A stretch of DNA of 64,000 nt from Eledone cirrhosa (Eukaryota), in contig OZ024741.1 in the NCBI GenBank assembly GCA_964016885.1, positions 44,082,001 through 44,146,000 of the forward strand, given 5' to 3'. A model generated the notes under the pieces. That model made no database searches. It had not been told where the DNA came from and was given only the letters and a program-made list of their open reading frames with translations. The translations under genes and the position numbers were made by a program. Of this stretch, positions 1,178-62,519 are shown in pieces (the first letter of the stretch is position 1; every line of letters begins with the position of its first letter).

Positions 1178-1764
1178 TATTCCATTTATATGTCTAGATT
1201 TGAAATTGTAATATTACGTCATGTAGAAAATTATTTTATATCTAAAAGTAACGTATCATGTATTATGAATAGGTATAATTATAAAGACCCCCGTCCCTAC
1301 TCAATAATACAATTTATTAAAGTTTTTCTCGTATGTATGACTATCCCTCTGTCTATATAACTAATTATATTTATATTATATCTCGTCTATCGGTTATAGA
1401 TATACGTTTAGTTTGTTTTTGCCTGTGTTTAGTTTTAAGTTACATAAACAAAGTAGGATGTCTCTAGATAAATATATGGTTTGAGAGAAACCAAAGATCA
1501 CGATAGAGATAGAATGATGGAGTGTGGTGGAGTGGTAGAGAATGATTAAAAGAGAGTGGAAGAGAAGGGGAGCGAAAGAGAGATGTGTTGGTGGGGGGAA
1601 ATGTGTGTGGATATATATATATGTGTGTGTATGCGTGTGTGTGCATGTGTATGTGTGTGCAGGGAGAGATAGAGAAATAGAGGGGAGGGAGAAAGACGGA
1701 GAGAGAACAATACGGGATTTAGAGAAGAGATAGAGAATAAAAGTGATAGTAAGAGAAATAGATG

Positions 1765-1768
<4 letters not shown>

Positions 1769-1831
<63 letters not shown>
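1769..1831. repeat. (TA)n microsatellite; many more across the window (e.g. 5332, 10455, 10992, 31491, 34200, 35791, 36009, 38712, 40200, 52068)
   Basis: Seen directly. Confidence 0.98.
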
Positions 1832-1836
<5 letters not shown>

Positions 1837-2439
1837 GTACATAAGAGGGATAGAATAAATCTTGAAATCGAATTCCATTGTGATTTTGGTATATATTTCG
1901 CATTAAATATATAAATTCCCCACAGTGTTAGTTCATTGAATTAAAGTTTTCAATGCAGCAAGAATATATTTGGATTTTCAATGTACAATTTATTCTAAGC
2001 AACGATGGAGGTTGTGAAAATATGTTTGGTTTAAACTCTGTCCAAGACTGGCTTTCATACACTTTTAATCAACAGTGAATTTTATCAATAACTCTACTTT
2101 GAATTTTAAGTTCAAACGCGCGACCTAGTATTTACATTGTTGAGTACATCATCGTAAGATCGTGGCCAGTATATCCATGAGCAAGGAAAGCATTTCATCT
2201 TAAATTGCACCAGCCGAAACAAATGTGTACCGACAGCATATACCACTAATCCTTATGACCAGTCTCTTAATGCCACAAGTAGCTTTACTACTATGTAATG
2301 TAATCAGGGAAGTTAATTTATAACTTAGCAAAGGAGTAAAGGCTACAAAATGGACACAATTCATGGAGTGGCAGTTAAACAGATTATCTAGCTCGAAAGT
2401 GGTCACACGCCTCGAAATGGAACTCTATACCGGGCCTCC

Positions 2440-2640
2440 GATTAACACTAGCTTTCAGAAACAGGAACGATCACTTCAAAGTGTTTGAACATATTTTCTA
2501 TTCTCCAGTAGCCCCTCACATCACTTTTGTAGAGACGAGCCTACAGTTCATAAAAATGCACCAACTCTTGGTGTAGCGCAGTGGGATGGAAGCAGAAAGC
2601 ACCCAGCTGATACGAGAAGCAACACTGGTAGAATATATTT
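2440..2640 (+). pseudogene. Possible highly decayed mariner transposase remnant
   Basis: tttgaacatattttctattctccagtagcccc reads FEHIFYSPVAP, resembling the mariner HPPYSPDLAP motif; no other support. Confidence 0.3.
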
Positions 2641-2750
2641 ATTACATTGATGAACATATTGTAAATGAAAAGGTGATTAATGATAATATAACTATACAAA
2701 CAGTAAGAAGGGATCAAGACAATTAAATGGTGACAGAAGTGAACCCCCCC

Positions 2751-2887
<137 letters not shown>

Positions 2888-4433
2888 GGGGGGATATGTG
2901 TGTGTGCGTGTCGCTGCTATTGTTGTCAATGGCACAGTGTGTTGTGGGTTGGTAGGAGTAGTTTTGCCCACATAATGCCGGTTTTCAGGGCAGAGAGCCT
3001 TGAAGTGAATATTGGCATAACTGGTTATATTTTCAGTGTATATTGCAACTTCATATTTAATCAATTTGTTAACTTAACATTTGTTTATTACATTTATGGC
3101 GCCCGCGTGACAGAGCAGAATTTTTATTAGATTTAAATTCAGTTCATGTCATGCTTTTAAATTTTAAATTTTAAATTTTACACAAATTCGATCGTTTACA
3201 ATACGGAAAAGTAGAAAAAATAGATAACGTAGATGTTGATTTATTATTCAGTAAACAATACGCTGCATTTACAAATACCTGAATAAACACATTTTTTTCT
3301 GTCTGTGTACAAAAAAGGCTAAAAAACATAATACTTAGATCTCTCACAATGAAGAATGTGTAAAAATAGAAACGCCAAAACATTACAAATGGCGGGAAAT
3401 CAACTAAAAAAGAAAGCTAATGTTGTTTATTGTGAATTTATAAACATTATACATCAGATAGTAATTCATTTTTCAACACAATGTTCTACATTTTCATGAA
3501 AAAAAATATGATGAGATAAAAGTTTGTATTGCTGACATTTATGAGAATGAATAAATTATTTATACTTAAAGTTTTATTTGTGAAGATTTTCACTACTAAC
3601 TTGTTAAAATCAATCACACATACTGACATATTGTTAATTTTTTTCCTACTATGAAAAATCAGAAAAACGATACGAAGATAAATGTGTTGAAAAACAATTT
3701 CTTTGAATATGCAAGAGGAATGTATCTTAACGTTGTATTTCCAAATTAAAAGTGCAGAATGTCTCTATAAGTATGACAATGTATTAACATCGTGAGTTTA
3801 TTAATTACACGCTTAAACCTTTACTAAACATTCAGTTGTCTTGTAATTGTGAGTCGGTAATCTCCATGCAATAATCACACATATACACAGACATGCATCC
3901 ATACCACTATACACACATGTATGCATAGATGCACAGACATACACACACACACTCACACACACATATATATATGGGTGGCAATAGTTCCAGCATCTAAAAT
4001 ACTGGTGTGGTGGTTCTGAGAACAATGCGGCTCTGCAGATGATCAATGCAATTTGACAATGGAAAGGCGCTTCCACTCAAGTTAGAAGAGAACTATTGAC
4101 CTTCAGGAGAAGCAGCGTCACCTGATTGTATTCTGCAACCGTAACAAATATGAAGTACATCAAATCCAATGCTCCTTGGTTCTCCTTATTTGCGAATGTA
4201 AACTTGGCCAGATTACATTAGATTAGATATATATGTATGTGTGTGTGTGTGTATGTATATGTGTGTGTGTGTCTGTGTGTGTATGTGTGTGTGTGTGTGT
4301 GTGTGTATTTGTGTATGTTTATACATGCACGTATGGCGGCCGTAAATGGAAAATGAGGCAAATAAACTGATGTATAATTCAGAAAATACTATATATTTTC
4401 AACTGTTCAACATATTGGCAGAGGCAAACAGTC

Positions 4434-4466
4434 CTGATGAAGGGTGATGACCCAGAAAGGTGTTCA
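4434..4466 (+). ncRNA. Hammerhead ribozyme-like motif (Penelope pLTR type)
   Basis: CTGATGA-a-GGGT-gatg-ACCC-a-GAAA; stems I and III are poorly defined. Confidence 0.55.
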
Positions 4467-4682
4467 ATGTTCCTCGATGCCAGTGTATAACAAATGAAGA
4501 ACGATTGCTTATCGGTACAGCACAGCTTTATTGGACCGCTCGCTTGCAGACGAATCGAATATTATTATTAATGTTTGATACAACCCATACGTACATATGT
4601 TGTTGCAGGGGACAAGCTTCAAGCTTTCGGCAAGAACATCCTAGTGGGGAGCTGCTCTTAGGGCTGTTGGTTTTGTGAGGTG

Positions 4683-5328
4683 CTAAGAGCAGCACCCACC
4701 AGGATGCTCTTGCCGAAAGACTGCCTCTTTTCCCCTTCAACTACATTGCAACACACCCGCTGTAATTTAGTCACTTCTAAGCGACCAAATCAACAACAAC
4801 AAGTTAAATCCTATGTTGGTATGGTGGAGGGCCGGTTTAAGGGGCGCTTCCTGAACCATTAGACGACCTTCAGATATCCGGACAAAAGATCGTCCACGAA
4901 ACTCGCGAGCCAGGTATGGTCCCTCAAAGACACAGGCGTAGACTACACCATCCAATAGAAAGCTATTACTAAGTCCAAGTCATACGCAAGGGGTAATGCG
5001 TTTTGTGGAGTGTGCATTGAAGAAAGGATCGATATTCTGAGAAGATTACGCAATAACGATTGCCTAAATTGAAGGAATGAGCTTTTTTCTCGTTGTCCAC
5101 ATTTCTGGAAACACCTCTTGTATAATTACAAAGCTCCGGATCATCAACATTCTAACATTCTAATCAACTCGAATAATTTATTCCGGACATTCGCAGTTAT
5201 CTCCCTTACACATTTCGACCACCGTTTCTGCGCACGTGTATTCAAACGGTTGTTTTTCCTTTTCTGTACAACCACACTGAGGCCGACCTGAAGATCCGCA
5301 AGGTGAAACATTTGTTCTCTGTATTGTG

Positions 5329-5331
<3 letters not shown>
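4683..5331 (+). mobile_element. Penelope-like element, Neptune-type, 3' fragment (Zn finger, GIY-YIG endonuclease pseudogene, pLTR), ending at (TA)n
   Basis: Reads GCSCRK..FPL..HC...AVI*, then KSYVGMVEGRFKGRFLNH*TTF..STKLASQVWSLK..CGVCIEE..LN*RNELFSRCPH, with internal stops. Hammerhead-like CTGAAGA-t-CC-GCAA-GG-t-GAAAC at 5288-5317. Confidence 0.85.
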
Positions 5332-5401
<70 letters not shown>

Positions 5402-5779
5402 TATATACATATATATTCAATTTATTAAGGTTTAATAGTAAGTCTTGCAAATACTGAAATTCCAGAACATTGTAGTAGCGATTCTAAAATTGCCCCCACT
5501 CGTCAGGCACAAGGACTACTTTAAGGAAAAAGCGTGCTTTTTTTTTACGATTAATGATCATAGTTCGAAATAGTTCCAATGTAAATCAAATGGGCATCTC
5601 CCAAATTAAAGAAAATATAATTTTATACAACTATATGTGTTAAGTTACGTTCATGTAATTGTTTTTGTTTAATCTATTAAAGAGAATAGTTTTAATTTTG
5701 TGTTCAGTTCTTTGTATTCTTATTTTTACAATAATTAAGTGAACACACTTCCAATACGATGGGCATGAGGTTAGAATAT

Positions 5780-5967
5780 TTCAGGATAAATTTTACGGGC
5801 AAAACAATCGGTAGCAGACGCAGGGTTAGACCCAGAGCTAAATGGTTGGAGAACATCTATGTATTTGGCTGGCCTCGCTTGGGTAACCAGCCGGATCATT
5901 TGGAGGCGGTTGCGCCTGAGAGGATCCGCTGGAAGGAGTTTTTAAGGACCCTACCATGATGACCAAA
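5780..5967 (+). mobile_element. 3' stub of an RTE-like LINE followed by a (GAA)n tail (5968-6077)
   Basis: GKTIGSRRRVRPRAKWLENI resembles the RTE C-terminal G-R-RGRP-W motif; homologous to 55020 and 56898. Confidence 0.65.
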
Positions 5968-6204: not shown

Positions 6205-8075
6205 CATCATCATCATCAGGTCGAGCTTGCTCGGCTTTCTACGACACGTTTCCTCCATCCATCTCTGTCTCTCATAGATTTTGCCAGTTCTTCCGCAGTG
6301 CATCCAGTATCGTCCTCAAGTTGCTTGACGTGTGTCTTCTTGGGACGACCAGCGTTTCTTGCTCCATGAGATGGTCTCCATAACAACACATCACCTGCTA
6401 TTTCTTCCTTGCTGCGCCAACAGTGGCCAGCAAATCTGAGTCTCTGTCCACGTATTGACCTGCTGATAGGTGGTATATTGCCATAGAAATCTTTATTTGT
6501 TGGGTGTTCCCTCCAAGACACGTTCAAAGCAGCGCAGAGCATACGTGTGTATGCCCCGTCTAGCTTTTCCTCCAGTTTCGACGTTAGCGTCCAAGTGATA
6601 TAACCATAAACAAGCACAGATTCCACAGCAGCTCTGAACAAATTCCTTTACAGTTTCGCCGGCAGGTTTGATTTCCATATCTTTTCCATTGCATTCAATG
6701 CTCCCCAGGCTTTTCCCAGTCTGATGTTAAGATCATGTTCTGTGGAGGCGATATAGCTCTCCAGGTATTTGAAGTCGTCAACTTGCTTGATTATATCGCT
6801 GGTTAGACTTCGCATACCAACTGAGGAGTCTTGGTTTAGACAAATATATTCTGTTTTGCCTGCGTTGACATAGAGCCCGATTTCCTTAGCAACTGATTCG
6901 ATGCTGTGAACTAGTGATGTTGCATCCTTAAGGTAGTCAGCAAGCACCGCTAAATCATCCGCATAGTCAGCATCGGTAATTTTCTGAGCTGCATGGCGTC
7001 TACACTTTCGCTTTGTGAGACTGAAACAAGCTCGAAGTTTTTGTCCAGGCTTTTCTCAATACATAGTCGAGGCAGATCATAAAAATATATGGTGCAACAG
7101 TACTCCTGCAATGATGTCAAAGAAGTTGGTATCTCCATCAGGTGAGCGCACCATTGCGCGGGTGTTTTTATATAACATCATGATGGCATTTACTGTCTCC
7201 CTTGGCAAGCCATAGGCAAGAAGTATCTCTCTCATCCTCCCACGATGGATGGAATCGAATGCTTTTGAAAAGTCAATAAACAGGAGCGTTGCTGGGAGGT
7301 TTTTGGCTTTTACGCCCTCCAAGATACGCCGAATAGTCAGTATTTGCCCTGATGTTGATCTGTTGGTGCGGAGGCCATTTTGGTTTTTTCTCAGCAAGGG
7401 GTCAATGAAAGGTCTTATTCTGTCAAACAGCATGAGATTGTATATCTTTTCGGCAATTGCCATCAGTGTTATGCCACGGTAGTTTTTAGCCATTCCAAGA
7501 TCGCCATTTTTGGGAAAAGGGAGTATACATCCCTCAGTCCATTTGTCTATGGGGTCTTGATTATAGACACCATTACACAACTCTAGTAGGATTGGGTGAA
7601 ATTCAGGTACCTTCTTCACTTCAGCTGGGATCTCGTCGAGTCCGCATGCTTTTCCGTTACCAATACTTTTCACTGCTTTCTGTAGTTCCTCCATATTGAA
7701 AGGACCTTTCTGTATTTGGTGTTCCTCTGTAAAAACGGGTATTATTTCTTCTTCGATGATCTGTGGTGCTTTGCCAAGTATGTCCTGAAAATGTTGTTGC
7801 CACAGTTTTAAACGTTCGTCTTGGCTAGAGGCTTTCAGTTTGGCTCTGTCACTACTTTTTCTGCCACTAATTTCATTGACAGTTTTCCAGGTTTCAGCAG
7901 ACTTCTTATTGCTGACAGTACTCGAGATATGATTAATCTTTCTCTGTATGTATTTGGCTTGCTCAATTTCATACTCACTTTTCAGTGCTGTACATGCAGC
8001 ATTGAAGTTACTAATGTTTTCTGGAGATCGTTAAGTGTCTCTCAATTCTGCAGGTTTTCGCAACTCATTGCAACT
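6205..8075 (-). mobile_element. RTE-clade LINE, 5'-truncated, frameshifted RT pseudogene
   Basis: ORFs 7077-7694, 6648-6947 and 6216-6641: GKACGLDEIPAE, NYRGITL, FIDFSKAFDSI, YADD region, RLRFAGHCWR, GRPKKT; (TGA)n tail. Confidence 0.92.
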
Positions 8076-13262: not shown

Positions 13263-13306
<44 letters not shown>

Positions 13307-13332
13307 ATAATAATAATAATAATAATAATAAT
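13263..13332. repeat. (TAC)n(TAA)n microsatellite, Tx1 target/tail
   Basis: Seen directly. Confidence 0.97.
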
Positions 13333-16300
13333 GATTTCTTTATTAACTACAAGGGTTTACATAAAGTAGACATTAAGGACAGTGCAGGACAATACAGGAC
13401 GGTACAAATGGGCATTTCTGCGTGTAAAAAACAAAAACAGAGGATGTAACAAAAAAATAACAATGAAAAATTCCCCAATAGGGGGGAGACTTCGGTGGGA
13501 CATTTGTGGAGAAAGCCACAATGACCCTGACCACCAAGGCAAGCGCCCTCTCCCAGTTTTCCACCTTTAATTTACAGATATATACTCAGAGTAGGCCCAT
13601 TCACTCGGGCCATTCTTGCTTCTCTCACCCATCTTTCAACAAAATTCTGGGAAGAGAGCACGTCCCTCTCTACTCTGATTTTCCTTATCAAATTAAATTT
13701 GAAAAAGTCAATCAGGGCATCACCGAAGAGGTAAGTGCTCGTCTTCAGCCCTTTCAAACGTGTCCACCATACTATCTCTTTCGCCATGGCCACCAGACAG
13801 ATAAAAACTGCCTGCCCTTCCCGGCTAAAGGAGGAGGGCGGGGCAATCCTAACGATGGACTCAGATGATAGCCGGATCCGTCCTAAACGCGACAGCAGGT
13901 GTTCGACATAAACCCACATGTCAGCAATTTTCGGACACTGGACGAGTGCGTGCAGGACGGTTTCGTCGCCCTGCGCGCATCTCGGACATGCCCGGCTGAC
14001 GGCACCTCCATGCCTGTAGAGTTTATCCCGAACTGGCAAGGCTCCTCGGTAGCACTGCCAGGCCAGAGATTTCTGGAAGTTGTCCATAGGCCCCGGCCCG
14101 AAAGTTCTTCTGAAGAGATTGGCTAGTTGATTTTCGTCGACGCCTAGAGTTTCCCCAAGTACGTCGTCGCTCTTCCCCTCCACTAATCCTCTGTAGAACG
14201 CCGAGGTGGAGTTTCCACCGATCCCATTGCCCGATTGGACGAGGGCTGTGAGCGCCTGAAGACATTCCAGTCTCCAGGCGCTCCCTCTCCTTCTTCGCTT
14301 GACCCAGGACTGCAGCTCTGTCATGGAAACGAGCTGGGGAAATACGTGTCTAGCAAATGGCGACAACACCTGATCACCGTCGAGGAAAAGGTGGAGATGT
14401 CGTAGCCTGAGCGCGTGCCAGCGCATCATCAGCCACGGCATGCCCAGCCCTCCACGTAGCGGGTGTTGACAACAGATGGACCGCCTGACCATTGGAGCGC
14501 TTCCCTTCCCCAAAAAGCGAAAGAGCAAACGCTCCAGCGCAGTCAGGCGAGGCTTAGGACAAGGTACGACGGTCAGGCGGTAGCAGATGACAGACGCGAT
14601 GTACGCGTTAGCCACCTCCGCTCGACCTTTTAGGGATAGCTTCCTCTCCGCCCATTTCTGGGTGAGAGAAGCCACCCTGCTCCTTACCTCGTCCCAGTTT
14701 TTGTCCGTCTGGAGGTCCGGACCGAACCAGACCCCTAGCAATTTAACCGGTCCGTCCGTCCAGCGTCCGACGACGCTGTTGGACGGCATGGACCTACCTC
14801 TCCAGGTGCCGAGCTGCAGGCCCACTGACTTATCCTGGTTGATCATTGCTCCTGTCACCGCTTCGTATTCTCTTAGTGTAGTGCCGATCGCCTCGATGTG
14901 TTTGGCGTTCGACAACATTACGGTGACATCGTCCGCATATGCTGACACGGATCTTCTGCATCCTAGTTCGCGCGGGACGCCCCTCAACGTCTCCAGTTTG
15001 TGCAGTAATGGCTCGAGAGTCAATACGAACAAGAGGGACGAGAGGGGACATCCTTGGCGGACCGAGCGTATGATGTTGAACGGTTCCGACAGGTGACCGT
15101 TCACTCTCACCACAGAGCAGATGTCGCTGTGCATGGTAGCGATCCAGCCTCTGAAGACGGGCCCAAAGCCAGCCGCCCTCAGGACTGCCGCTAGGTAACG
15201 ATGGTCGACCCTATCGAAAGCTTTCGACTGATCAAAATTGATCAAGGACCCACCCATGCCAGGTTCTCTAGCTACCCTCTCTACGATGTATCGCATGAGG
15301 TGGAGGTTGTCGTTGATAGATCTGTCGGGAATGGCGCATGTCTGCGCCTCTCCCACCAGACCACCAACGACAAGCGCCAACCTCTTTGCTAGCACCTTGG
15401 CCAAAATCTTGAACTCTGTGTTTAGCAGAGTTATGGGCCGGAAATTATCTATGTTATCCACCTTGTTCGGATCCTTTCTCAGCAGTGCCACCGCTCCTCG
15501 GCTCACAGAACTGGGAATTCTCCCGTTCTGTTGCCAGTTGCAGTAGACGTCCGCCACGAGGCCTCCGAACAAGTCTGGATTCTGTACGTAAAGTTCATAG
15601 GGCAGACCATCCACACCAGGCGATTTACCCCTTGTGCAGCCAGTCATTGCCTCCCTTACTTCAGCGGCTGTTATCGGCTTTTCGCAACACTTCGCCTCAG
15701 TGGCCGAGAGCCGCGGCAGTCCGTCGTGGTAGACACTAAAGTCCATCCCTCGACCCGGCCCACCGCTTCCCCCGAACAGCTGAGCCAAGTGTCGCTGAAA
15801 AGCTTCACACATTTGCCCGGGATCGAGTAGCATGCGCCCGTCGTGGTCCACCAAAGACCGGATCGTGACTCTGTTGCCACGACGCGCCTCCGCCACTCGG
15901 GCCCATTGAACGGCTTTCGTCCCCTCGTGTCTGAGAGCACACACCCTTGCTCTGACAACGCAGCCTTCGTGCTTTTCTTTGAAGAATTGGTCAAGGGCCA
16001 ATTTCGCCGCAAGAACGTCTGTCGCAATGCCTTTGCTAAGCGACTCGTCTAATTCTCTAACTAGTTCTCCCTCTGCTCTATTTTTCTCTATTGCTAAAGC
16101 CTTACTAAATCTAATGGATTCTATTCTAATCGCTCTTTTCAGAGCAAACCACCACTTGTTGTTGACGATGGCCCCCGTTAACGCCCGCTTAAATAGTTCG
16201 CTAATCCGGTCTCTGTAGGCCTTGCGCGCTGGTAAGGACGCGTTTAGCTTCCAGTAGCCGGGTCCTCGTCTATGAAGCCTATCTAAGTCAAGCACACAGA

Positions 16301-16333
16301 TCACGAATTTGTGGTCCGAGTAGCTGACTATCT
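13333..16333 (-). mobile_element. Tx1/L1-clade LINE copy 1, 5'-truncated
   Basis: 3' UTR ends CCTTGTAGTTAATAAAGAAATC(ATT)n; contains the 910-aa ORF; highly similar to copy 2. Confidence 0.93.
13572..16304 (-). CDS. Tx1-like ORF2, C-terminal 910 aa (RT plus CCHC), uninterrupted but lacking the APE domain
   Basis: GYWKLNAS, KSPGVDGLPYE, FRPITLLN, DQSKAFDRV, RQGCPLS, AYADD, GGLG, CPRC..ETVLHALVQC. Confidence 0.9.
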   Translation of the reverse strand: MICVLDLDRLHRRGPGYWKLNASLPARKAYRDRISELFKRALTGAIVNNKWWFALKRAIRIESIRFSKALAIEKNRAEGELVRELDESLSKGIATDVLAAKLALDQFFKEKHEGCVVRARVCALRHEGTKAVQWARVAEARRGNRVTIRSLVDHDGRMLLDPGQMCEAFQRHLAQLFGGSGGPGRGMDFSVYHDGLPRLSATEAKCCEKPITAAEVREAMTGCTRGKSPGVDGLPYELYVQNPDLFGGLVADVYCNWQQNGRIPSSVSRGAVALLRKDPNKVDNIDNFRPITLLNTEFKILAKVLAKRLALVVGGLVGEAQTCAIPDRSINDNLHLMRYIVERVAREPGMGGSLINFDQSKAFDRVDHRYLAAVLRAAGFGPVFRGWIATMHSDICSVVRVNGHLSEPFNIIRSVRQGCPLSSLLFVLTLEPLLHKLETLRGVPRELGCRRSVSAYADDVTVMLSNAKHIEAIGTTLREYEAVTGAMINQDKSVGLQLGTWRGRSMPSNSVVGRWTDGPVKLLGVWFGPDLQTDKNWDEVRSRVASLTQKWAERKLSLKGRAEVANAYIASVICYRLTVVPCPKPRLTALERLLFRFLGKGSAPMVRRSICCQHPLRGGLGMPWLMMRWHALRLRHLHLFLDGDQVLSPFARHVFPQLVSMTELQSWVKRRRRGSAWRLECLQALTALVQSGNGIGGNSTSAFYRGLVEGKSDDVLGETLGVDENQLANLFRRTFGPGPMDNFQKSLAWQCYRGALPVRDKLYRHGGAVSRACPRCAQGDETVLHALVQCPKIADMWVYVEHLLSRLGRIRLSSESIVRIAPPSSFSREGQAVFICLVAMAKEIVWWTRLKGLKTSTYLFGDALIDFFKFNLIRKIRVERDVLSSQNFVERWVREARMARVNGPTLSIYL

Positions 16334-19300
16334 AACCGGTGGTTATCTAACCATACATTCGCCAATCATCGATAAGAGCGTTTAAATATCGAACCTAAAC
16401 AGTTCGAATAACGGTGAAATGGAGACTAGAATGTCATGTGACAGACTCTCACCCAACAGGTGCTCCCTGGCGCAGCAGCAGGGACCTGGCTGTCAACCAA
16501 ATACTGATGGTGCCGGGGGAAGAAGAAGAAGGAAAGGGACCAGAACCAACTGGACGAAAGAATTGAATAGAACTGTTATGCAATGTTACCTGAAGAGTAA
16601 CCCCAAGGAGAAAGGCTATAGGAAACGGATGCATAAAATCTGGAACGAGATTGGTCTATTTAAATTAGATGAACAAAAATCAGCTGGGAAGGCTCGGGTA
16701 ATAAGAACTAATGGGTGGATAAGCGAGCTGGAACTGGAGGAACTGAGCAGAGAGACTAGTTTGGAAATGGAGAGTGGAGTATGCCAGGCAAACGAACCAG
16801 TGGGAAATGAAGGTGAAGAGGTCGAGAGAACGGAGTAACCGTCCGAAGCAGACGATGATCTGAATGCTGAAATAAATAATACCTGGAACAAAGATACGGC
16901 CATTGAGGAGTTGAATGCTGACGGGCTAGGACAAGATTTGATTGATATCCTAAACTTAGTGGTAGATGAATTGAACAATGATAGTGGGAAACCTATGAAC
17001 CTAAGATTTGTAGACAGGAAAAAGTTAAAAGAAACAACAGCTAAGGTAAACAAAGTCATCCCATACATTGAGGCGAGGAGCCTTCACCAGTGCAACAATA
17101 TCCACAAAGCAACAGCAAGTTCTGTGAGGAAATTACTTGGTATAAAAGCGAGAGGAAACAGCAAACGAGAAAGATCACAGCCTTGGTGTAAGAAACGACT
17201 GAGTGGTCAAATCAGGGAAATGAGAACTGACATTGGAAAGCTTGAGTCCCTACTGAATGGGACACTAAAAAACATAGACACTAAAAATAGACTGGAAATA
17301 AAGTACAAAACTAGGAGGAAAAAGCTAAATATTATCATAGAGGAACTGAAGCAACGCATTGTAGCAAAGAGTGCAAACATCAGGCGATACGAGAGCAGAG
17401 ACAGTCAGTATAGACAGAACCGCATGTTTGACAACAACCAGAAGATGCTGTTTGGACAGCATGAGGGGAAATAAAGAGGCAACGACTTGATCCCTGAGGC
17501 GGAACAAACTAAAACATTCTGGAGAGGAATATGGGAGCAGGATGTTAAACATAATGACGAGGCAGTGTGGATTGAGACAGTACAGAAGGAGATTAGTAAA
17601 TAGGCACACCAACAAACTGACTTGAGTATCACAGTTGAAACTCTTAAGGGGTAGGCCAAAAAATTAACCAACTGAAAATCACCAGGCCCAGATGGTGTGC
17701 AGGGGTATTGGATTAAAAATATAACATCCCTCCACCCGAAACTGACAACCATGTTCAATGACTGCTTGATGTCAGGTGAGGTACCAGAGTGGTTGACGAA
17801 AGGTACCACAGTTCTGGTAATGAAGGACCGAATCAAGGGTAATGATGTTACCAACTATAGACCTATCACATGTCTGTCCGTAATGTGAAAACTGTTGACA
17901 AGCATTATGTCTGAGGAAATCTACCATCACCTCCACACAAACAACTTATTATCGGACGAACAGAAATGATGCCGAAAGAAGTCCCGTGGTACAAAGGACC
18001 AGTTACTTATTGATAAGATAGTAATGAGGAATTGCAAGAGGAGACACACTGGTCTTGCCATGGGATGGATAGACTACAAAAAGGCATTTGACATGGTGCC
18101 TCATTCTTGGATCACCAAAAGCCTAGAGATCTTCAAGGTGGCACATAACATCAGACAGTTGTTGGGAAAAAGTATGAAGTACTGGGAAACAGTGTTAACA
18201 TCAACTGGAGAATCCTTGGGAAGCGTGAAGATCAAGAGAGGTATCTTCCAGGGAGATAGTCTGTCCTCTCTGTTGTTTGTCCTTGCCCTGGTGCCCCTGA
18301 CCATTATACTGCGAAAAGTGAAAGCAGGATAGAAGTTGGGAAAGGGAGAGCTTACCATCAATCACCTCCTCTTCGTGGACGATCTTAAGCTCTTCGGGAA
18401 GAACGAGAAGGAGTTGGATGTGCTTGTTGATGTCCGTATTTTCAGCAATGATATATGTTGGATGTCCGTATTTTCAGCAATGATATATGTATGCAATTTG
18501 GTATTAGTAACTGTAGAGTCCTTGAGATGAAGAGATGTAAATTGAGCAGAAGCCACGGAATCCAGGTACCAACAGGTGAGATGATAAAGGAAATTGACAC
18601 TGAAGAAGGATACAAGTATTTGGGTGTTCTGGAGGCTTATGACATCAAGAGCAAAAAAATGAAGGAATTGATAAGAACTGAATACATTCGGAGAATAAGG
18701 AGCGTATTAAAGTCACATCTGAACAGTAGGAATGCCATAAGTGCAGTAAATTCCCGAGCTGTGTCTATTATTAGGTACAGTGCGGGAATTCTGAGATGGA
18801 ATGTTGCTGAACAAAAAGAAATGGATAGGAAGACTAGGAAATTATTGACTATCTACAACATGTTGCACAAGGGGGGTGATGTCGATAGATTCTACTTAAG
18901 GGGATTTGAAGGTGGAAGATGTCTTATCATCATTGAGGACAGTGTTCAGATGGAGAAAAACAACCTACACAAATACGTGACTGATAGTAAGGAGCCAATG
19001 CTCAGAACTGTACTGAAGGAGAGGACAATAGACCAGGGGATGTCCGGGGTGGAAATAACAACAAGGAGAAAGAGCTGCCTCCAGGAAATATCCCTTCATA
19101 GTACCTTCTTTGAGAAAACTGAATTTAGAGATCCACAGACATGGAATTGGTTGAAAAGAGGAGACATTAAAAAGGCTACAGAAGGAATGTTAATGGCTGC
19201 GCAGGAGCAGGCCCTCAATACGAAGTGGTTGAAACACCATATTTACGAGGAGGAGGCTAGCCCACTGTGCAGGATCTGTGGAGAGAGAGAGGAGACTGTG

Positions 19301-19912
19301 GCTCACATTGTATCCGAGTGTAAACACCTAGCCCATACTTACTATAAGGGCTGGAGACATGATGGGATGGGCAGGGTGATATACTGGCACTATGCAAAGT
19401 AAACAATTCACCACATTCTGAGAAGTGGTATGAGCATAAGCCAGAGTCGGTGACAGAAAACGATCAGGTGAAGGTGCTGTGGGATTTTAGGATACAGACG
19501 GACAAGAAACTGGAACACAATAGACCTGACCTGGTTGTTGTGGAGAAAGAAAAAAGATCGTGCCTGATTGTGGATGTGGCCTGCCCATTTGTCACGGCAG
19601 TGCAAGAGAAGGAGAGGGAGAAAATTAACCGATACCAGGACTTAAAGTGGGAGGTAAAAAGGATTTGGAACTGCCATGAAGTCAAAGTGATCCCGATTGT
19701 CATAGGCGCACTAGGGACTATTTCAAAAAGTTTCCAGGGATGTTTAAAGAAAATTCGCACCTTCACGCTTTTTGGAACGTTTCAAAAGGCATGCTTGCTG
19801 GGAACAGCAAGAACCCTCCGATACGTCCTGAATATCTGAGGCTGCAGGTAGTGGCTTGATACTCATTTTAACAAACTTTCCAGTTAACTAACATTAATGA
19901 CTGAGACTCAAA
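16334..19912 (+). mobile_element. R4/Dong-clade LINE copy A, near full-length, multiple stops and frameshifts
   Basis: N-terminal WTKELNRTVMQCY..GYRKRM..IW..EQ; [37 protein letters not shown]; CRIC..ETVAHIVSEC; REL nuclease RPDLV..IVDVACP..EK..RYQDL. Confidence 0.93.
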
Positions 19913-19916
19913 GAGT

Positions 19917-20132
19917 ATTGTCATAGGCGCACTGGGGACTATCTCCAAAGGTTTCCAGGGATGGTTAAAGAAAATCGGCCCCTTCACGCTTTTTGGAACG
20001 CTTCAAAAGGCATGCTTGCTTGGAACGGCAAGAACCCTCCGATACGTCCTGAATATCTGAGGCTGCAGGTAGTGGCTTGATATTCAATCCAACGGACTTT
20101 CCAGTTAACCAACATCAATGACTGAGATTCAA
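19917..20132 (+). mobile_element. Dong 3' stub, followed by (AAT)n
   Basis: Repeats 19696-19912 with substitutions. Confidence 0.93.
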
Positions 20133-20161
20133 GGAATAACAATAACAATAATAATAATAAT

Positions 20162-23100
20162 GTTTTCTTTATTAACCACAAGGGTTTAAATAAAGTAGAC
20201 ATTAAGGACAGTACAGGACAATACAGGACGGTACAAATGGGCATTTCTGCGTGTAAAAAACAGAGGATGAAATAAAATAACAAAGAAAAATTCCCCAATA
20301 GGGGGGAGACTTCCGAGAGACATTTGTGGAGAAAGCCCATTAAAAAACCACAGTGACCCTGACCACCAGGGCAAGTGTCCTCTCCCAGTTTTCCACCCTT
20401 AATTTACAGACACATACTCAGAGAAGGCCCATTCTTTCGGGCCATACTTGCTTCTCTCACCCATCTTTCAACAAAATGCTGGGAAGAGAGCATTTCCATC
20501 TCTACCCTGATTTTCCTTTTCAAATGAAATTTGAAAAAGTTAATCAGGGCATCACCGAAGAGGTAAGTGCTCGTCTTCAGCCCTTTCAAACGTGTCCACC
20601 ATACTATCTCTTTCGCCATGGCCACCAGACAGATAAAAACTGCCTGCCCTTCCCGGCTAAAGGAAGGGGGCGGGGCAATCCTCACGATGGACTCAGCTGA
20701 TAGCTGGATCCGTCCTACACGTGACAGCAGGTGTTCGACATAAACCCACAAGTCAGCAATGCTCGGACACTGGACGAGTGCGTGCAGGACGGTTTCGTCT
20801 CCCTGCGCGCATCTCGGACATGCCCGGCTGACGGCACCTCCATGCCTGTAGAGTTTATCCCGAACTGGCAAAGCTCCCCGGTAGCACTGCCAGGCCAGGG
20901 ATTTCTGGAAATTGTCCATAGGCCCCGGCCCGAAAGTCCTTCCGAAGAGATTGGCTAGTTGATTTTCGTCGACGCCTAGAGTTTCTCCAAGTACGTCGTC
21001 TCTGTTACCCTCCACTAATCCCCTATAGAACGCCAAGGTGGAGTTTCCACCGATCACATTGCCCGATTGGTCGAGGGCTGTGAGCGCCTGAAGGCATTCC
21101 AGTCTCCAAGCGCTCCCTCTCGGTCTTCGCTTGACCGAGGACTGCAGCTCTGTCAAGGAGACGAGCTGGGGAAAAACGTGTCTAGCAAACGGCGACCACA
21201 CCTGATCACCGTCGAGGAAGAGGTGGAGATGTCGTAGCCTGAGCGCGTGTCTGCGCATCATCAGCCACGGCATGCCCAGCCCTCCACGTAGCGGGTGTTG
21301 ACAGCATATGGACTGCCTGACCATCGGAGCGCGTCCCTTCCACAAGAAGCGAGAGAGCAAACGCTCCAGCGCAGTCAGGCGGGGCTTAGGACAAGGTACG
21401 ACGGTCAGGCGGTAGTAGATGACGGATGCGATGTACGCATTCGCCACCTCCGCTCGACCTTTCAGAGATAGCTTCCTCTCGGCCCATTTCTGGGTGAGAG
21501 AAGCCACCCTGCTCGTCACCTCGTCCCAGTTTTTGTCCTTCTGGAGCTCTGGACCGAACCAGACCCCTAGCAATTTAACCGGTCCGCCCGTCCAGCGCCC
21601 GACGACGCTGTTGGACGGCATGGACCAGCCTCTCCAGGTTCCGAGCTGCAGGCCCACTGACTTTTCCTGGTTGATCATTGCTCCTGTCACCGCTTCGTAT
21701 TCTCTTAGTGTAGTGCCGATCGCCTCGATGTGTTCGGCGTTCGACACCACTACGGTGAAATCGTCGGCATATGCCGACACGGATCTTCCGCATCCTAGTT
21801 CGCGCGGGACGCCCCTCAATGTCTCCAGTTTGTGCAGTAATGCCTCGAGAGTCAATACGTACAATAGGGACGAGAGGGGACATCCTTGGCGGACCGAGCG
21901 CATGATGTTTAACGGTTCCGAAAGGTGACTGTTCACTCTCACTACAGAGCAGATGTCGCTGTGCATGGTAACGATGGTCGACCCTATCGAAAGCTTTCGA
22001 CTGATCTAAATTGATCAAAGTCCCACCCGTGCCAGGTTCCCTAGCTACCCTCTCTACGATGTATCGCATGAGGTGGAGGTTGTCGTGGATGGATCTGTCG
22101 GGAATGGCGCATGTCTGTGCCTCTCCCACCAGACCACCAACGACTAGCACCAACCTCTTTGCTAGCACCTTGGCCAAAATCTTGAACTCTGTGTTTAGCA
22201 GAGTTATGGGCCTAAAATTATCTATGTTATCCCCCTTGTTCGGATCCTTTCTCAGCAGCGCCACCACTCCTCGGCTCACAGAGCTGGGAATTCTCCCGTT
22301 CTGTTGCCAGTTGCAGTAGACATCCGCCAAGAGGCCTTCGAACAAGTCTGGCATTTGTACGTAAAGTTCATAGGGTAGACCATCCAAACCAGGCGATTTA
22401 CTCCTTGTGCAACTAGTCATTGCATCCCGTACTTCAGCGGTTGTTATCGGCTTTTCGCAACACTCGGCCTCAGTGGCCGAAAGCCGCGGCAGTCCGTCGA
22501 GGTAGACACTAAAGTCCATCCCTCGATCCGGCCCGCCACTGCCCCCGAACAGTTGAGCGAAGTGTCGCTGAAAAGCTTCACACATTTGCCCGGGATCGAG
22601 TAGCATGCGCCCGTCGTGGTCCACCAAAGACCGGATCGTGGCTTTGTTGCCACGACGCGCCTCCGCCACTCGGGCCCATTGAACGGCTTTCGTCCCCTCG
22701 TGTCTGAGAGCACGCTCCCTAGCTCTGACAACGCAGGCTTCGTGCTTTGCATTGAAGAATTGGTCAAGGACAAATTTCGCCGCAAGTACGTCGATCGCGA
22801 TGCCTTTGCTAAGCGCCTCATCTAATTTTCTAACTAATTCTCCCTCTGCTCTATGTTTCCCTATTGCTAAAGTCTTACTAAACCTAATGGACGCTATTCT
22901 AATTGCTCTTTTCAGAGCAAACCACCACTTGTTGTTGACGATGGCCCCCGTCAACGCCCGCTTAACTAGTTCGCTAATCCGGTCTCTGTAGGCCTTGCGC
23001 GCTGGTAAGGACGCGTTTAGATTCCAGTAGCCGGGTCCTCGTCTATGAAGCCTATCTAAGTCAAGCACACAGATCACGAATTTATGGTCCGTGTAGCTGA

Positions 23101-25052
23101 CTATCTTGAATTGTGGACAGTCTATGCTAGACCTATCTATTTCCCTACAAAATACTCTATCTAGATATGATCTGGATGACCCTATGCTATTTGTCCAAGT
23201 CCACATTGGTACATTTTGGAAATCCATTCGGTACCTGTCAGACAGTTCAAAACGTCTGAGCAGGTTGGTGAGACTCTTGCACCCTCGTTCCCTATCCACT
23301 AATCCCACACAATCCTAGCGTGCATCTAAGATCCCGTTCCAGTCGCCCACTAACACCAAAGAGCGGGTCGTCCCAAGAAAGGTCTCCAGACGCCGGAAGA
23401 AATCAGGCCGCCCTGCTCCTGTCGGGGCATAGACGGCCACTAACCTGAAAGCTTGCCCGTCTCCGCTGGTCATGTACAGTACCACCAACATACCTTCTGG
23501 GTCCAGGAAGATGGCCCGTATGGCAAGATCCAAACCTCTCCGAAAAAGCACAGCAACTCTTCCCCCCGATCCCGGACGGCTGGGAGATGCGTACACATCG
23601 TAGCCGCCGAAAATCTGTGCGAAAGCCTGTGCTTCGGAGATTCTGGTCTCGCTGATGGCCACTACATCTATGTCTAGAGACCTGAGGTCGTTGAGCAGGT
23701 GCCCTGCTTCCATGATGACCCCAAGCCACGAGCATTTATGCTGCCTATTCTGAGTGAGGTGATGTTGAAAAGGAGTGGAAAAGATGGGAAAGACCACTTA
23801 CCTTACTTCTCGTAGGGGAAGGGCGGTTTTTCCATCCTTTTCACTGCTTGTGGCCTCCTCAGGAAGGATGTCCTTATACATCCTCCTGGAGAGTGCTTGT
23901 CGGAAGTCTCCGATGACTTTGGGGAATTTTTGTTTCAGTGTCATGTACGTTTTCTGTGTGATGCGAGTGATTTGTATGTGTGGAGGTGGTGTGCATTTTG
24001 GGGTTGTTGTGTAGTCTTTTTCTGTGATGCTGGTGTTGTGTTGGATGTAGTGTAATAATTGCTTGTTGTTCAAATTTAATGCTGTGTAGTGTGTATCGTT
24101 TTGGTTGTTTTGTTTTGTTTGCGTTTGTTGTGGGTTTGTTTCTGTTTCGCATTTTGGTGACTTTTGTGGTGTAGGTGATGGTGGTGTTGGGGTTAACGAT
24201 GGTGATGGTGTTGGTGTTTGGCTTGATGGGGTTGGTGATGCTGCTGTAGACGGTGGCATATCTGTTCTAACTTTTTTGTTTCTTAATTTATTTGTTTCCC
24301 TCTGTATTTTGTTTTTGGAGGGGGAAGGAAGAGAATTTTTTTCTTTTTTGGTTTCTTTTTTTTTCCGGATATCGTTTCCCACTCCTCGTCGTCACAATCT
24401 GTCTCCAGTTGTGATAGGCCGGGGAGTGGAAAATCCTCCACAGGCGTTAGTTTTGCTTGTGGCGTGTTGGATGGTGTAGGCGCTGGTGCTAGTTCTGAAG
24501 TGTTGGGTGGTGGTGGTGTTGGTTTTGCTGGTGGTGGTGGTGGTGGTGTTGGTGTTTTGCTACTGTTGCTGGGGTTGTTGCTGTTATAGTTGCTTCTGTT
24601 GTTGCTGCTACAGTTGTTGCTGCCATCTCTGCTACTGGTGGTGTTGATGGTTGTGTCACTGGGGTGGGTAGGAGAGGTGGCCTCAACCTTTTAGCCTGAG
24701 GGCAGAAAGCCCTTAGGTGGGTTCCTTCACCACAAACGACACACCTAGGTCTTCTGCCCTCGACAATTACCGTGAGGTGGCTGCCGTCAGTGAGGTCTAT
24801 TACCTCTGGGATCTCCTCAATGCTTTTTTGGTCCGCTTGGATCAGGAGCTCCATCCCAGATCCGGACCAGTTCTCCTGCTTTTCTTTTGCTATTGCTATT
24901 ATTTTTGTGTTGGCTTCGATGCCGGCGAGGACGGCCGCTATTAGCAAGGGAATTTCGATGGCCGGTGGAACGTGGGTCACCCTGATCTTTACGAGTCTCT
25001 GGCCACAATAGCTTGTGACGAGTGTGAAGTCTTCACTTCTTAATGGGGCCAT
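20162..25052 (-). mobile_element. Tx1/L1-clade LINE copy 2: partial ORF1 with zinc knuckle, and disrupted ORF2 (APE plus RT)
   Basis: ORF1 CVVCGEGTHLRAFC; APE NARGLG, AISET, VYAP, LVGDWN, YLDR, TDH; RT split by a 59-nt deletion; (ATT)n tail. Confidence 0.94.
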
Positions 25053-25353
25053 GGAGAGGGAGAAAATTAACCGATACCAGGACTTAAAGTGGGAGGTAAA
25101 AAGGATTTGGAACTGCTATGAAGTCAAAGTGATCCTGATTGTCATAGGCGCACTAGGGACTATTTCAAAAAGTTTCCAGGGATGTTTATAAAAAATTCGC
25201 CCCTTCACGCTTTTTGGAACGCTTCAAAAGCATGCTTGCTGGGAACAGCAAGAACCCTCCGATACGTCCTGAATATCTGAGGCTGCAGGTAGTGGCTTGA
25301 CATTCATTTCAACAAACTTTCCAGTTAACTAACATCAATGACTGAGACTCAAA
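25053..25353 (+). mobile_element. Dong 3' stub, followed by (AAT)n
   Basis: Matches 19611-19912. Confidence 0.93.
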
Positions 25354-26136
25354 ACAATAATAATAATAATGATAACAATGCTACTACTACTTGCACTCCT
25401 CCTTCTACTACTTCTGCTACACGGATATTTTACATAAAAGTAAACGGAGAATTCCCCAATCTGGAAATGTATTTATCCCCACACGAAACGAATATAATTA
25501 ACTAACAGTAACTGAAACAATCAAATGAAAAGGTAGAGCAAATATTGCAGAATGAATTCTCAAAGGATGAGAATAATTGCTAAAACTTCGATCAAAATAA
25601 AATGTTCCAAGATTAAAATCGACACTACAGAATATATATATTTAAAAGAGTTTTCATCGGGAGAAGGTAAAACTATTTCATATATTTAACTCTAGCCTGC
25701 TTTTTTTTTATTTCTTGTATCGCTTTTTGTTTCCGTAATTCAGAAAATATCGAACAGTTTAAACCACTTTTAGCATCAACTTCTCTGTTTCAAATATGTA
25801 TCTAAATGGGTAATATTAGAAGAAACGATTTCATGTGCAATAGGACGTTAAGAGTTTTACAGCGTTTTCGAAAAAATAAATAACAAAGAAACAAAAATAA
25901 AACATATTTGATAGCGTAGGTTCAAAATCGGACTATTTAACATTATTTAATAAAGAAATTATACATTTAAAAAGGTTTTTATTAGAAGAGATGGAAAAAG
26001 TTATTGTGGTAATTCGCTCTATTATTCGTGAGTTTTATTTCGACACATAATATAATAACGTGAGGAGTGCGGGACTGTGTCCTGAATATATTTCTTTACC
26101 CCGTTAATAAAATATGTCGGATTACTCTGAATAAAT

Positions 26137-26326
26137 AATTGTTTCTACTTTTGGCACAAGGCCAGCAATTACCTAGTACATTACTGGTACTTCATTTTAT
26201 CGACCCCGTAAGGATGAAAGGCAAAGTTAACCTCGGCGGGATTTGAACTCAGATCATAAAGGGCCGTAACTCTGTGTTGCAAAGCATGGTGTCCGACCTT
26301 CTACCGATACTGCCAATCCACCACCA
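26137..26326 (-). mobile_element. SINE family A (tRNA-like head; central GCCTTTCATCCTTACGGGGTCGATAAAAT..GTACCAG domain), with TSD
   Basis: A-box-like GGCAGTATCGGTAG and B-box GAGTTCAAATCCC; TSD tgaataaataat on both sides. The central domain resembles the Meta/MESC SINE domain as I recall it. Confidence 0.9.
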
Positions 26327-50738: not shown

Positions 50739-50760
50739 TATATTTATATATATATATATA

Positions 50761-52061
50761 TAGCCCTCGTTCGTGTAGGTTCTATTCTCTAAGCGCTCAT
50801 ATATTCACCTAGCTTATGCTAAACAGAATAATTTTTGAAGCTTGTTTCTGTCCCCTACGGTATGCTATACTTTCGGTTGTTCTCCTGTCTCACTCGCTTT
50901 ACGCGTTTTAATTGTCCTAATAACTTATTTTGGTTATTATTGCACCGAAGTGAGATATATGATTTTTAATGCAATGAAATATCTATGATCTTCGGCAAAT
51001 CACTGATGAGGGACTTATTTTATTACATGTTATCCATGTGCTACCTGCAGTATTTTTCTCTATATTTTAATACATATATTTACCACTGCGATTCTGTGTT
51101 TTTTTCTCTCTCTCTTACTGTTCCCCCATTCTCTCTGTTTCTCCCCCTCTGTCTTGTCCGTTAACTCTTCCTCACACTTTCACTCACTCACTGTTTTTCT
51201 CCCTCTTCTCTTCATTTCATCCTGCACTCACGAACGCTATATTTTTCTCTCTCTGCTCATAGCCCTCGTTCGTGTAGGTTCTATTCTCTAAGCGCTCATA
51301 TATTCACCTAGCTTATGCTAAACAGAATAATTTTTGAAGCTTGTTTCTGTCCCCTACGGTATGCTATACTTTCGGTTGTTCCCCTGTCTCACTCGCTTTA
51401 CTCGTTTTAATTGTCCTAATAACTTATTTTGGTTATTATTGCACCGAAGTGAGATATATGATTTTTAATGCAATGACATATCTATGATCTTCGGCAAATC
51501 ACTGATGAGGGACTTATTTTATTACATGTTATCCATGTGCTACCTGCAGTATTTTTCTCTATATTTTAATACATATATTTACCACTGCGATTCTGTGTTT
51601 TTTTCTCTCTCTCTTACTGTTCCCCCATTCTCTCTGTTTCTCCCCCTCTGTCTTGTCCGTTAACTCTTCCTCACACTTTCACTCACTCACTGTTTTTCTC
51701 CCTCTTCTCTTCATTTCATCCTGCACTCACGAACGCTATATTTTTCTCTCTCTGCTCATAGCCCTCGTTCGTGTAGGTTCTATTCTCTAAGCGCTCATAT
51801 ATTCACCTAGCTTATGCTAAACAGAATAATTTTTGAAGCTTGTTTCTGTCCCCTACGGTATGCTATACTTTCGGTTGTTCTCCTGTCTCACTCGCTTTAC
51901 GCGTTTTAATTGTCCTAATAACTTATTTTGGTTATTTTGCACCGAAGTGAGATATATGATTTTTAATGCAATGAAATATCTATGATCTTCGGCAAATCAC
52001 AGATGAGGGACTTATTTTATTACATGTTATCCATGTGCTACCTGCAGTATTTTTCTCTATA

Positions 52062-52067
<6 letters not shown>
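50761..52067. repeat. 499-bp tandem repeat, ~2.6 copies, flanked by (TA)n
   Basis: Units start at 50761, 51260 and 51759; near-identical. Confidence 0.96.
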
Positions 52068-52126
<59 letters not shown>

Positions 52127-54096: not shown

Positions 54097-54628
<532 letters not shown>

Positions 54629-59100: not shown

Positions 59101-59135
59101 TATTATTATTATTATTATTATCATTGTTATTACAC

Positions 59136-62189: not shown

Positions 62190-62219
62190 TATTATTATTA
62201 TTATTATTATTATTATTGA

Positions 62220-62471: not shown

Positions 62472-62487
62472 ATTATTATTATTATTA

Positions 62488-62519
<32 letters not shown>

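What the first reader, a model, noticed from the sequence alone, without database searches (positions are those of the whole stretch)
13263..25380. Spacerless head-to-head Tx1|Dong fusions: two-ended retro-insertion at (TAA)n
Seen: (TAA)n <Tx1|Dong> Dong-stub> (AAT)n <Tx1|Dong-stub> (AAT)n. At 16333/16334 and at 25052/25053 the truncated 5' end of an APE-type Tx1 joins directly to the 5' end of an REL-type Dong, with no microsatellite left between them. At 25053, comparison with Tx1 copy 3 (QSVVTLRSE vs LSMAPLRSE) suggests GGA is shared microhomology. Established: Dong targets TAA repeats and Tx1 families are often microsatellite-specific. Inference: one break in (TAA)n is filled from both sides, one strand primed on the ATT-tailed Tx1 RNA and the other on the AAT-tailed Dong RNA. 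This is the heterologous counterpart of the (TA)n palindromes and suggests a general two-template insertion/repair route shared by unrelated retroelements.
Basis: partly seen in the sequence, partly recalled or inferred. Interest (0 to 1): 0.8.

Follow-up and report, generated by a model that had tools for sequence, protein, structure and literature searches.

The report
Two retrotransposons stacked in TAA repeats
Two unrelated jumping genes insert into the same TAA repeat from opposite strands and are sometimes fused head to head; here they most likely arrived one after the other, not in a single two-ended event, although a one-event origin stays possible for some such fusions elsewhere in the genome.

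Summary
The junctions are real. A 5'-truncated Tx1-type LINE meets a 5'-truncated Dong-type LINE at 16333/16335 (one extra A, no microhomology) and at 25053-25056 (GGAG shared), with no (TAA)n between. Such fusions recur: 6 of 100 Tx1 and 4 of 95 Dong copies sampled by position. Head-to-head is forced by polarity, since Tx1 is (ATT)n-tailed and Dong (AAT)n-tailed. Spacer loss goes with truncated Tx1 ends beside any neighbour (68 of 95 keep under 3 units; 69 of 70 full-length heads keep the tract). The two-RNA model fails at junction 2: the Dong stub shares three rare substitutions only with the neighbouring Dong's 3' end (2 of 167 copies), so it is likely a local duplicate made when Tx1 entered that Dong's tail. 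One other fusion is a nested insertion, and the one (TA)n palindrome tested recurs whole (37 of 39 places), MITE-like. Junction 1 is undecided. For the wider class two hints favour one-event insertion: no full-length Dong-type partner (0 of 19 against 12 of 49) and partner ages that agree better than in spaced pairs. Polymorphism could not be tested. Two-RNA insertions are already described for L1.

The parts
13263..13332 (.). (TAC)n then (TAA)n target tract, on the tail side of Tx1A
13337..16333 (-). Tx1A: 5'-truncated Tx1-type LINE (positions 2851-5857 of a natural full-length copy), broken inside the endonuclease region; ORF2 remnant open for 919 codons
16334..16334 (.). Junction 1: one untemplated base, no microhomology, no microsatellite
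16335..19914 (+). Dong1: 5'-truncated restriction-like-endonuclease LINE (1380-4919 of 4921), reading frame broken many times
19611..19914 (+). 3' end of Dong1; the segment that is duplicated as the stub at 25053
19917..20136 (+). Young Dong 3' stub of another subfamily, joined to the end of Dong1 without a tract
20135..20161 (.). (AAT)n tract between stub tail and Tx1B tail
20166..25056 (-). Tx1B: Tx1-type LINE lacking its first 926 nt; 93% identical to Tx1A
25053..25056 (.). Junction 2: GGAG microhomology shared by Tx1 and Dong
25053..25353 (+). Dong stub (4616-4917), direct repeat of 19611-19914 flanking Tx1B
25354..25380 (.). (AAT)n tail

Best explanation
The cluster is a stack of LINE copies in one (TAA)n tract that was likely built by separate insertions: Dong first, then Tx1 copies whose truncated 5' ends likely lost the repeat when they were joined to neighbouring DNA. 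Shown: Tx1 carries (ATT)n tails and Dong (AAT)n tails, so neighbours in one tract are antiparallel; full-length Tx1 heads sit on a tract, truncated ones mostly do not, whatever lies beside them; truncated Dong heads mostly keep it. Inferred: a full-length Tx1 cDNA ends in repeat units and anneals to the tract, whereas a truncated cDNA cannot and is joined by microhomology or end joining after the tract is trimmed or bypassed. At junction 2, Tx1B was primed in Dong1's tail and its cDNA end paired at GGAG about 300 nt inside Dong1, so that Dong1's last 302 nt were duplicated on the far side (a long target-site duplication or templated join). At junction 1, Tx1A was joined bluntly, with one added base, to an already truncated Dong1.
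For: (1) Stub 25053-25353 and Dong1's 3' end share three alleles each present in at most 4 of 167 copies; 162 copies have none, 3 have one, only these two have all three, and the four nearest relatives of Dong1 that could be scored (of five fetched) have none. 7 of 9453 copy pairs, this one included, share three such alleles. Changes since duplication (11 in 2 x 302 nt) fit Tx1B's private load (p = 0.48). (2) 69 of 70 full-length Tx1 heads keep the tract; 68 of 95 truncated ones keep fewer than 3 units: 18 of 26 beside Dong-type heads, 11 of 14 beside SINE tails, 9 of 19 beside Tx1 tails, 24 of 30 beside unclassified DNA, 6 of 6 other. No significant excess beside Dong heads (hand-curated 13 of 25 against 9 of 28, p = 0.17; one of the 13, L308, proved to have a tract). 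(3) 65 of 81 truncated Dong heads keep the tract; of the other 16, 9 meet a Tx1 head and 2 a SINE head. (4) Fusion L318 is a Tx1 nested inside a Dong-like element with a 22-nt duplication. (5) The stub at 19917 has 0 private changes in 212 sites against 75 in 3527 for Dong1 (p = 0.02) yet is joined without a tract: sequential insertion erased the spacer within this array. (6) Microhomology, added bases and target deletion at truncated 5' ends are described for R1, R2 and L1 (PMC2718515, PMC11702581, passages).
Against: No full-length Dong-type partner in 19 spacerless or short-spacer fusions (one may be a segmental duplicate) against 12 of 49 spaced pairs (p = 0.015; 0 of 19 against 4 of 9 among truncated Tx1 only, p = 0.006). 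Partner ages disagree at p < 0.05 in 2 of 13 fusions against 13 of 28 spaced pairs (p = 0.08), and shuffling partners worsens agreement (p = 0.01-0.15 by subset). With nearest relatives added, the age gap at junction 1 is not significant (p = 0.15). The three shared alleles lie within 35 nt, so a short gene-conversion tract could mimic duplication. The 300-nt duplication was not seen at two other fusions that have a Dong on both sides (L337: 21 differences in 316 columns, no shared rare allele; L265-266: 90% identity).
Confidence: 0.62

Rival explanations
1. A sizeable share of the fusions, possibly junction 1, arise in one event: the two ends of a break in (AAT)n/(ATT)n are primed on a Tx1 RNA and a Dong RNA and the two unfinished cDNAs are joined. 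Only truncated-by-truncated events would show as spacerless, because a full-length cDNA would bring its own repeat units.
For: All 19 spacerless or short-spacer fusions have both partners truncated. Partner ages agree better than in spaced pairs (chi-square per pair 1.8-2.5 against 6.5 at equal information); three well-powered fusions have log2 age ratios of -0.24, 0.01 and 0.40 to 0.71. Junctions are blunt, short-overlap or carry added bases. A same-family head-to-head Tx1 with a tail at both outer ends exists (L309). L1 makes opposite-orientation two-RNA insertions (PMC11702581 section 7).
Against: Junction 2 and L318 have sequential explanations. No significant excess of spacer loss beside Dong heads (p = 0.17, 0.41, 0.08 by definition used). 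Rank correlation of partner ages not significant (rho 0.34-0.36, p 0.22-0.26). Dong1 carries more private changes than Tx1A in both estimates and is 96-97% from its best genome matches against 98% for Tx1A. The palindrome offered as homologous counterpart is a repeated fixed unit.
Confidence: 0.27
2. The partners were first separated by a tract, and a later break in the tract was repaired with loss of the tract and some hundreds of bases of both heads.
For: Explains the absence of full-length partners. Near-full-length Tx1 are over-represented among fusions (hand count 3 of 9 against 1 of 45, p = 0.012; junction 2 is another). Dong partners in fusions are older than in spaced pairs (p = 0.03). 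Four tail-to-tail joins with both 3' ends missing were seen.
Against: Predicts independent partner ages, which fit less well. Dong-to-Dong tandems rarely lose the tract (63 of 73 keep 3 or more units; several exceptions are annotation artefacts). At least one of the four tail-to-tail joins is a nested insertion (L318) and L383 looks like one. Does not explain the shared alleles at junction 2.
Confidence: 0.11

Closest known systems
Two-transcript L1 insertions in opposite orientation (PMC11702581, section 7 and passages read)
   Same: Two 5'-truncated reverse transcripts joined head to head with microhomology or untemplated bases; explained there as ligation of opposite DNA ends extended on different RNAs.
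   Different: There one enzyme (L1 ORF2p), overexpressed in cultured cells, nine two-transcript cases of both orientations; here two LINE clades with different endonucleases in a germ-line genome, and a one-event origin is not shown.
L1 twin priming and templated insertions (10.1101/2024.08.27.596794, passages read)
   Same: Templated insertions duplicate nearby genomic DNA, typically under 250 bp, at the 5' join; junction 2 looks like this.
   Different: The duplicated piece here is 302 nt of another retroelement's 3' end; twin priming uses one RNA.
R1 and R2 5' junctions in Drosophila (PMC2718515, passages read)
   Same: An APE-type and a REL-type element share one target locus; precise 5' joins where the RNA carries upstream target sequence, microhomology, added bases or deletions in truncated copies.
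   Different: Target is 28S rDNA, not a microsatellite; the passages read describe no R1|R2 head-to-head fusion.
R4/Dong elements in (TAA)n (PMC7998251, passages) and microsatellite-specific Tx1 families Kibi and Koshi (PMC4494074, passages)
   Same: RT plus REL endonuclease in (TAA)n; APE-type Tx1 specific for a microsatellite.
   Different: Kibi and Koshi target (TC)n and (TTC)n; this Tx1 targets (ATT)n and shares its tract with Dong-type elements and a SINE.

Membership tests
Tx1 clade LINE | ORF2 with N-terminal APE endonuclease, RT and C-terminal zinc-binding motif | tested here: met
   Natural intact copy L162: Exo_endo_phos, RVT_1, zf-RVT
Tx1 clade LINE | Separate ORF1 upstream of ORF2 | tested here: met
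   713-aa ORF before the 1204-aa ORF2 in the natural copy
Tx1 clade LINE | RT phylogeny groups with Tx1 | tested here: inconclusive
   Best named LINE hit is 'Transposon TX1 uncharacterized 149 kDa protein', E 1e-87, 32% identity; no tree with named references was built
Tx1 clade LINE | Sequence-specific target | tested here: met
   69 of 70 full-length heads on (ATT)n
R4/Dong clade LINE | Single ORF, RT, C-terminal CCHC and restriction-like endonuclease, no APE | tested here: met
   1141-aa ORF in L216; best solved relatives are R2 proteins, with the endonuclease stretch weakly aligned; CCHC, RHD and RPD..D motifs present (motif patterns recalled); no APE in Pfam
R4/Dong clade LINE | (TAA)n target | tested here: met
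   65 of 81 truncated heads on the tract; tails
R4/Dong clade LINE | RT phylogeny within R4/Dong; N-terminal Myb/SANT-like domain | not tested
   Homologues found carried no clade names; no reference set on hand
Two-RNA, two-ended insertion | Each half is an independent reverse transcript | tested here: not met
   Junction 2: the Dong half duplicates its neighbour; junction 1 has no such duplicate
Two-RNA, two-ended insertion | Halves of equal age | tested here: inconclusive
   Junction 1 p = 0.006 or 0.15; class-wide agreement suggestive
Two-RNA, two-ended insertion | Halves co-polymorphic | tested here: inconclusive
   Runs offered did not bridge the junctions or show an empty allele
Two-RNA, two-ended insertion | Excess of spacerless joins over sequential expectation | tested here: inconclusive
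   p = 0.08-0.41 against same-polarity neighbours; 0 of 19 full-length partners, p = 0.015

The most novel reading that the evidence does not exclude
A substantial share of the several hundred spacerless Tx1|Dong fusions in this genome, junction 1 among them, were made in one step: an APE-type and a REL-type retrotransposon complex each primed one end of the same (AAT)n break and their truncated cDNAs were joined, a fixed germ-line record of co-insertion by two unrelated LINE clades.
Probability: 0.27. Interest if true: 0.75.

Novelty: new variant of a known kind. Interest (0 to 1): 0.38.

Why it matters
How the 5' end of a LINE insertion is joined is the least understood step of retrotransposition. 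This genome holds about 8000 copies each of an APE-type and a REL-type LINE on one target, and they treat that target differently at truncated 5' ends (Tx1 mostly loses it, Dong mostly keeps it). That is a natural side-by-side comparison. If part of the fusions are one-event, it would show that unrelated retrotransposon complexes finish one break together in the germ line, and several hundred loci would make this testable with a second haplotype. As a caution, an apparent partner stub can be a duplicate of the neighbour.

Tried and rejected
Composite element that moves as a unit: neither junction recurs among the 40 places scored; one other fusion occurs twice (L197, L204), 1.2 Mb apart, likely a segmental duplicate. 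Tandem duplication of the whole Tx1|Dong unit: Tx1A and Tx1B are 93% identical and Tx1B is longer. Slippage origin of the 221-bp repeat at 19696-20132: the copies are 90% identical and belong to different subfamilies. Polymorphism by public runs: X1-X3 are one sample, possibly the assembly's source; X4-X6 are reduced-representation runs; repeats swamped the signal and no listed record bridged a junction; no evidence either way. First age estimate (Dong older, p = 0.006) weakened when nearest relatives were added; the refined stub value is biased low because genome-wide best hits share chance changes. Automated microhomology calls failed at 4 of 25 junctions and disagree with BLAST overlaps at several others, so no class-wide microhomology claim is made. 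MITE status of the other seven palindromes: no whole copy in the loci held, untested genome-wide. Literature searches listed no report of Tx1|Dong fusions; the library lacks most subscription papers, and no supplements were read. The look-up of earlier findings returned nothing.
Full report
OBSERVATION. The window lies in a 3.0-Gb genome (G000). An octopus is my inference from sequence character and one weak hit; I did not pursue it. Against natural full-length copies (Tx1 5857 nt, Dong 4921 nt) the region reads: (TAC)n(TAA)n, Tx1A 13337-16333 (-), A, Dong1 16335-19914 (+), Dong stub 19917-20136, (AAT)n, Tx1B 20166-25056 (-), Dong stub 25053-25353, (AAT)n. Junction 1 has one untemplated base and no overlap. 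Junction 2 has a GGAG overlap. Neither junction recurs among the 40 places scored in each search. An intact natural Tx1 ORF2 has APE, RT and zinc-binding domains and a hit named TX1. An intact Dong-type ORF has RT and a C-terminal CCHC and restriction-like endonuclease region, nearest to R2 among solved structures. Clade placement by tree was not done.

SAMPLING. Exact 3'-end patterns count 8165 Tx1 and 7678 Dong copies. I fetched the surroundings of the first 100 Tx1 hits and 95 of the first 100 Dong hits, all on contig C1 (160 of 165 planned tiles, 1.16 Mb), and the first 30 loci of each of four variant Tx1 patterns (82, 138, 212 and 187 hits; flanks of 1500 nt show only short copies). Spacerless head-to-head fusions involve 6 of 100 Tx1 and 4 of 95 Dong hits, roughly 300-500 genome-wide (95% range about 90-1030). 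The class is real.

ORIENTATION NEEDS NO SPECIAL MECHANISM. Tx1 families and a 184-nt SINE carry (ATT)n tails, two Dong-type families carry (AAT)n tails, so neighbours in one tract are antiparallel. Head-to-head pairs with a tract between them are the commoner form: 49 against 19 without or with 2 units. One lies in this window at 62454-62520.

SPACER LOSS FOLLOWS TRUNCATED TX1 ENDS. 69 of 70 full-length Tx1 heads sit on a tract. Of 95 truncated ones outside the window, 68 keep fewer than 3 units: 18 of 26 beside Dong-type heads, 11 of 14 beside SINE tails, 9 of 19 beside Tx1 tails, 24 of 30 beside unclassified DNA, 6 of 6 in other settings. A hand-curated count of wholly spacerless ends gave 13 of 25 against 9 of 28 (p = 0.17); one of the 13 later showed a tract. 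Truncated Dong heads keep the tract in 65 of 81; of the remaining 16, 9 meet a Tx1 head and 2 a SINE head. Inference: a full-length Tx1 cDNA ends in repeat units and anneals, a truncated one is end-joined after trimming. R1 and R2 show comparable junction types (PMC2718515, passages), as does L1 (PMC11702581, passages; PMC4245944, abstract only).

JUNCTION 2 IS SEQUENTIAL. The stub at 25053 and the last 302 nt of Dong1 share three alleles found in 4, 3 and 2 of about 167 copies. Of 167 copies covering the three sites, 162 carry none, 3 carry one, and only these two carry all three; four of Dong1's five fetched nearest relatives could be scored and carry none. Seven of 9453 pairs share three such alleles, this pair included. 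The two segments form a direct repeat around Tx1B once the young stub at 19917 is set aside. Their 11 differences fit Tx1B's load of private changes (p = 0.48). Simplest reading (inferred): Tx1B was primed in Dong1's tail and its cDNA end paired at GGAG inside Dong1, duplicating 302 nt. L1 templated insertions are similar (10.1101/2024.08.27.596794, passages). Caveats: the comparison was made after the fact, the three sites span 35 nt so gene conversion is possible, and both copies could stem from an unsampled source element.

OTHER SEQUENTIAL CASES. L318 is a Tx1 inside a Dong-type element with a 22-nt duplication. The stub at 19917 is younger than Dong1 (0 of 212 against 75 of 3527 sites, p = 0.02) and is joined without a tract. 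Two other fusions with a Dong on both sides show no duplication.

JUNCTION 1 IS OPEN. Private changes: Tx1A 48 and Dong1 87 on similar weighted lengths (p = 0.006); 47 and 75 after adding nearest relatives (p = 0.15). Best genome matches over 1500 nt are 98% for Tx1A and 96-97% for Dong1. Dong1 leans older, not decisively.

No full-length Dong-type partner in 19 spacerless or short-spacer fusions against 12 of 49 spaced pairs (p = 0.015); among truncated Tx1 alone 0 of 19 against 4 of 9 (p = 0.006). Partner ages differ at p < 0.05 in 2 of 13 fusions and 13 of 28 spaced pairs (p = 0.08), at equal information; shuffling partners gives p = 0.01-0.15 by subset. Dropped before these counts: pairs with under 200 weighted sites, one duplicate locus, nine spaced pairs picked by similarity and L384. 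Larger deletions also explain the first point, and overlapping bursts the second. L309 is a same-family head-to-head Tx1 with tails at both ends, which fold-back synthesis explains as well.

PALINDROMES. The 385-bp palindrome at 54199-54583 recurs essentially whole at 37 of the 39 other places scored, 85-97% identical. A fixed unit of this kind is MITE-like (my knowledge), not a one-off two-ended insertion. The other seven palindromes were not tested genome-wide.

POLYMORPHISM could not be tested: the runs offered were one possibly self sample and three reduced-representation runs.

KNOWN AND NEW. Dong in (TAA)n (PMC7998251, passages), microsatellite-specific Tx1 (PMC4494074, passages) and a Dong in octopus (PMC9115989, passages) are known. 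Opposite-orientation two-RNA insertions are described for L1 (PMC11702581, section 7), and joining of two L1 intermediates at different loci is shown (PMC13526784, abstract only). PMC9977147 (passages) was not relevant. Six searches listed no report of Tx1|Dong fusions or of an (ATT)n-specific Tx1 sharing Dong's tract; subscription papers, Repbase and supplements were not seen and may hold such a report.

VERDICT. Real junctions and a real recurring class, best explained by stacked insertion with spacer loss at truncated Tx1 ends (0.62). Two-RNA co-insertion for part of the class 0.27; later deletion 0.11. Interest 0.38.

Noticed in passing
window 54199-54583: Near-perfect 385-bp palindrome beside (TA)n that recurs whole at 37 of 39 other scored places: MITE-like family. 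Seven other palindromes in the window.
   Followed up: partly
window 59135-64000: Second array: Dong 59135-62178 and stub 62221-62454 (-), tract, then a full-length Tx1 head from 62520 (+): the ordinary spaced head-to-head form.
   Followed up: partly
window 26139-26325 and 13 further places: 184-nt SINE with an (ATT)n tail and a tRNA-like head (box motifs recalled); same polarity as Tx1; twice fused to Dong heads elsewhere (L233, L278).
   Followed up: partly
L159 against L162; L142-143 against L229-230: Two Tx1 subfamilies share ORF2 (96.7%) but differ in 5' UTR and ORF1; two Dong-type families share the first 700 nt (85%) but not the ORF: 5' swaps between lineages.
   Followed up: no
L309:1345-1523: Two 100-nt Tx1 3' ends fused head to head, (AAT)n on the left and (ATT)n on the right: fold-back synthesis or two-ended priming on one family.
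   Followed up: partly
L318, L383: Tx1 3' end, tract and the next Tx1 head lie as one piece against an internal position of a Dong-type element (in L318 with a 22-nt duplication): likely read-through RNA from tandem arrays.
   Followed up: partly
L231-232 (block 4243-4336): Dong copy with a short inverted 5' piece, as in twin priming on one RNA.
   Followed up: no
L187, L227: Tx1 copies that keep only the first 8-11 nt of the head and then jump inward (by about 80 nt and by about 5.5 kb).
   Followed up: no
L197 and L204: The same Tx1|Dong-type fusion at two places 1.2 Mb apart; one has a further Tx1 stub joined with loss of 31 nt.
   Followed up: partly
window 50760-52076: 499-bp unit, 2.6 tandem copies, 98% matches.
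   Followed up: no
window 7077-8030: RT-bearing frame of another retroelement.
   Followed up: no
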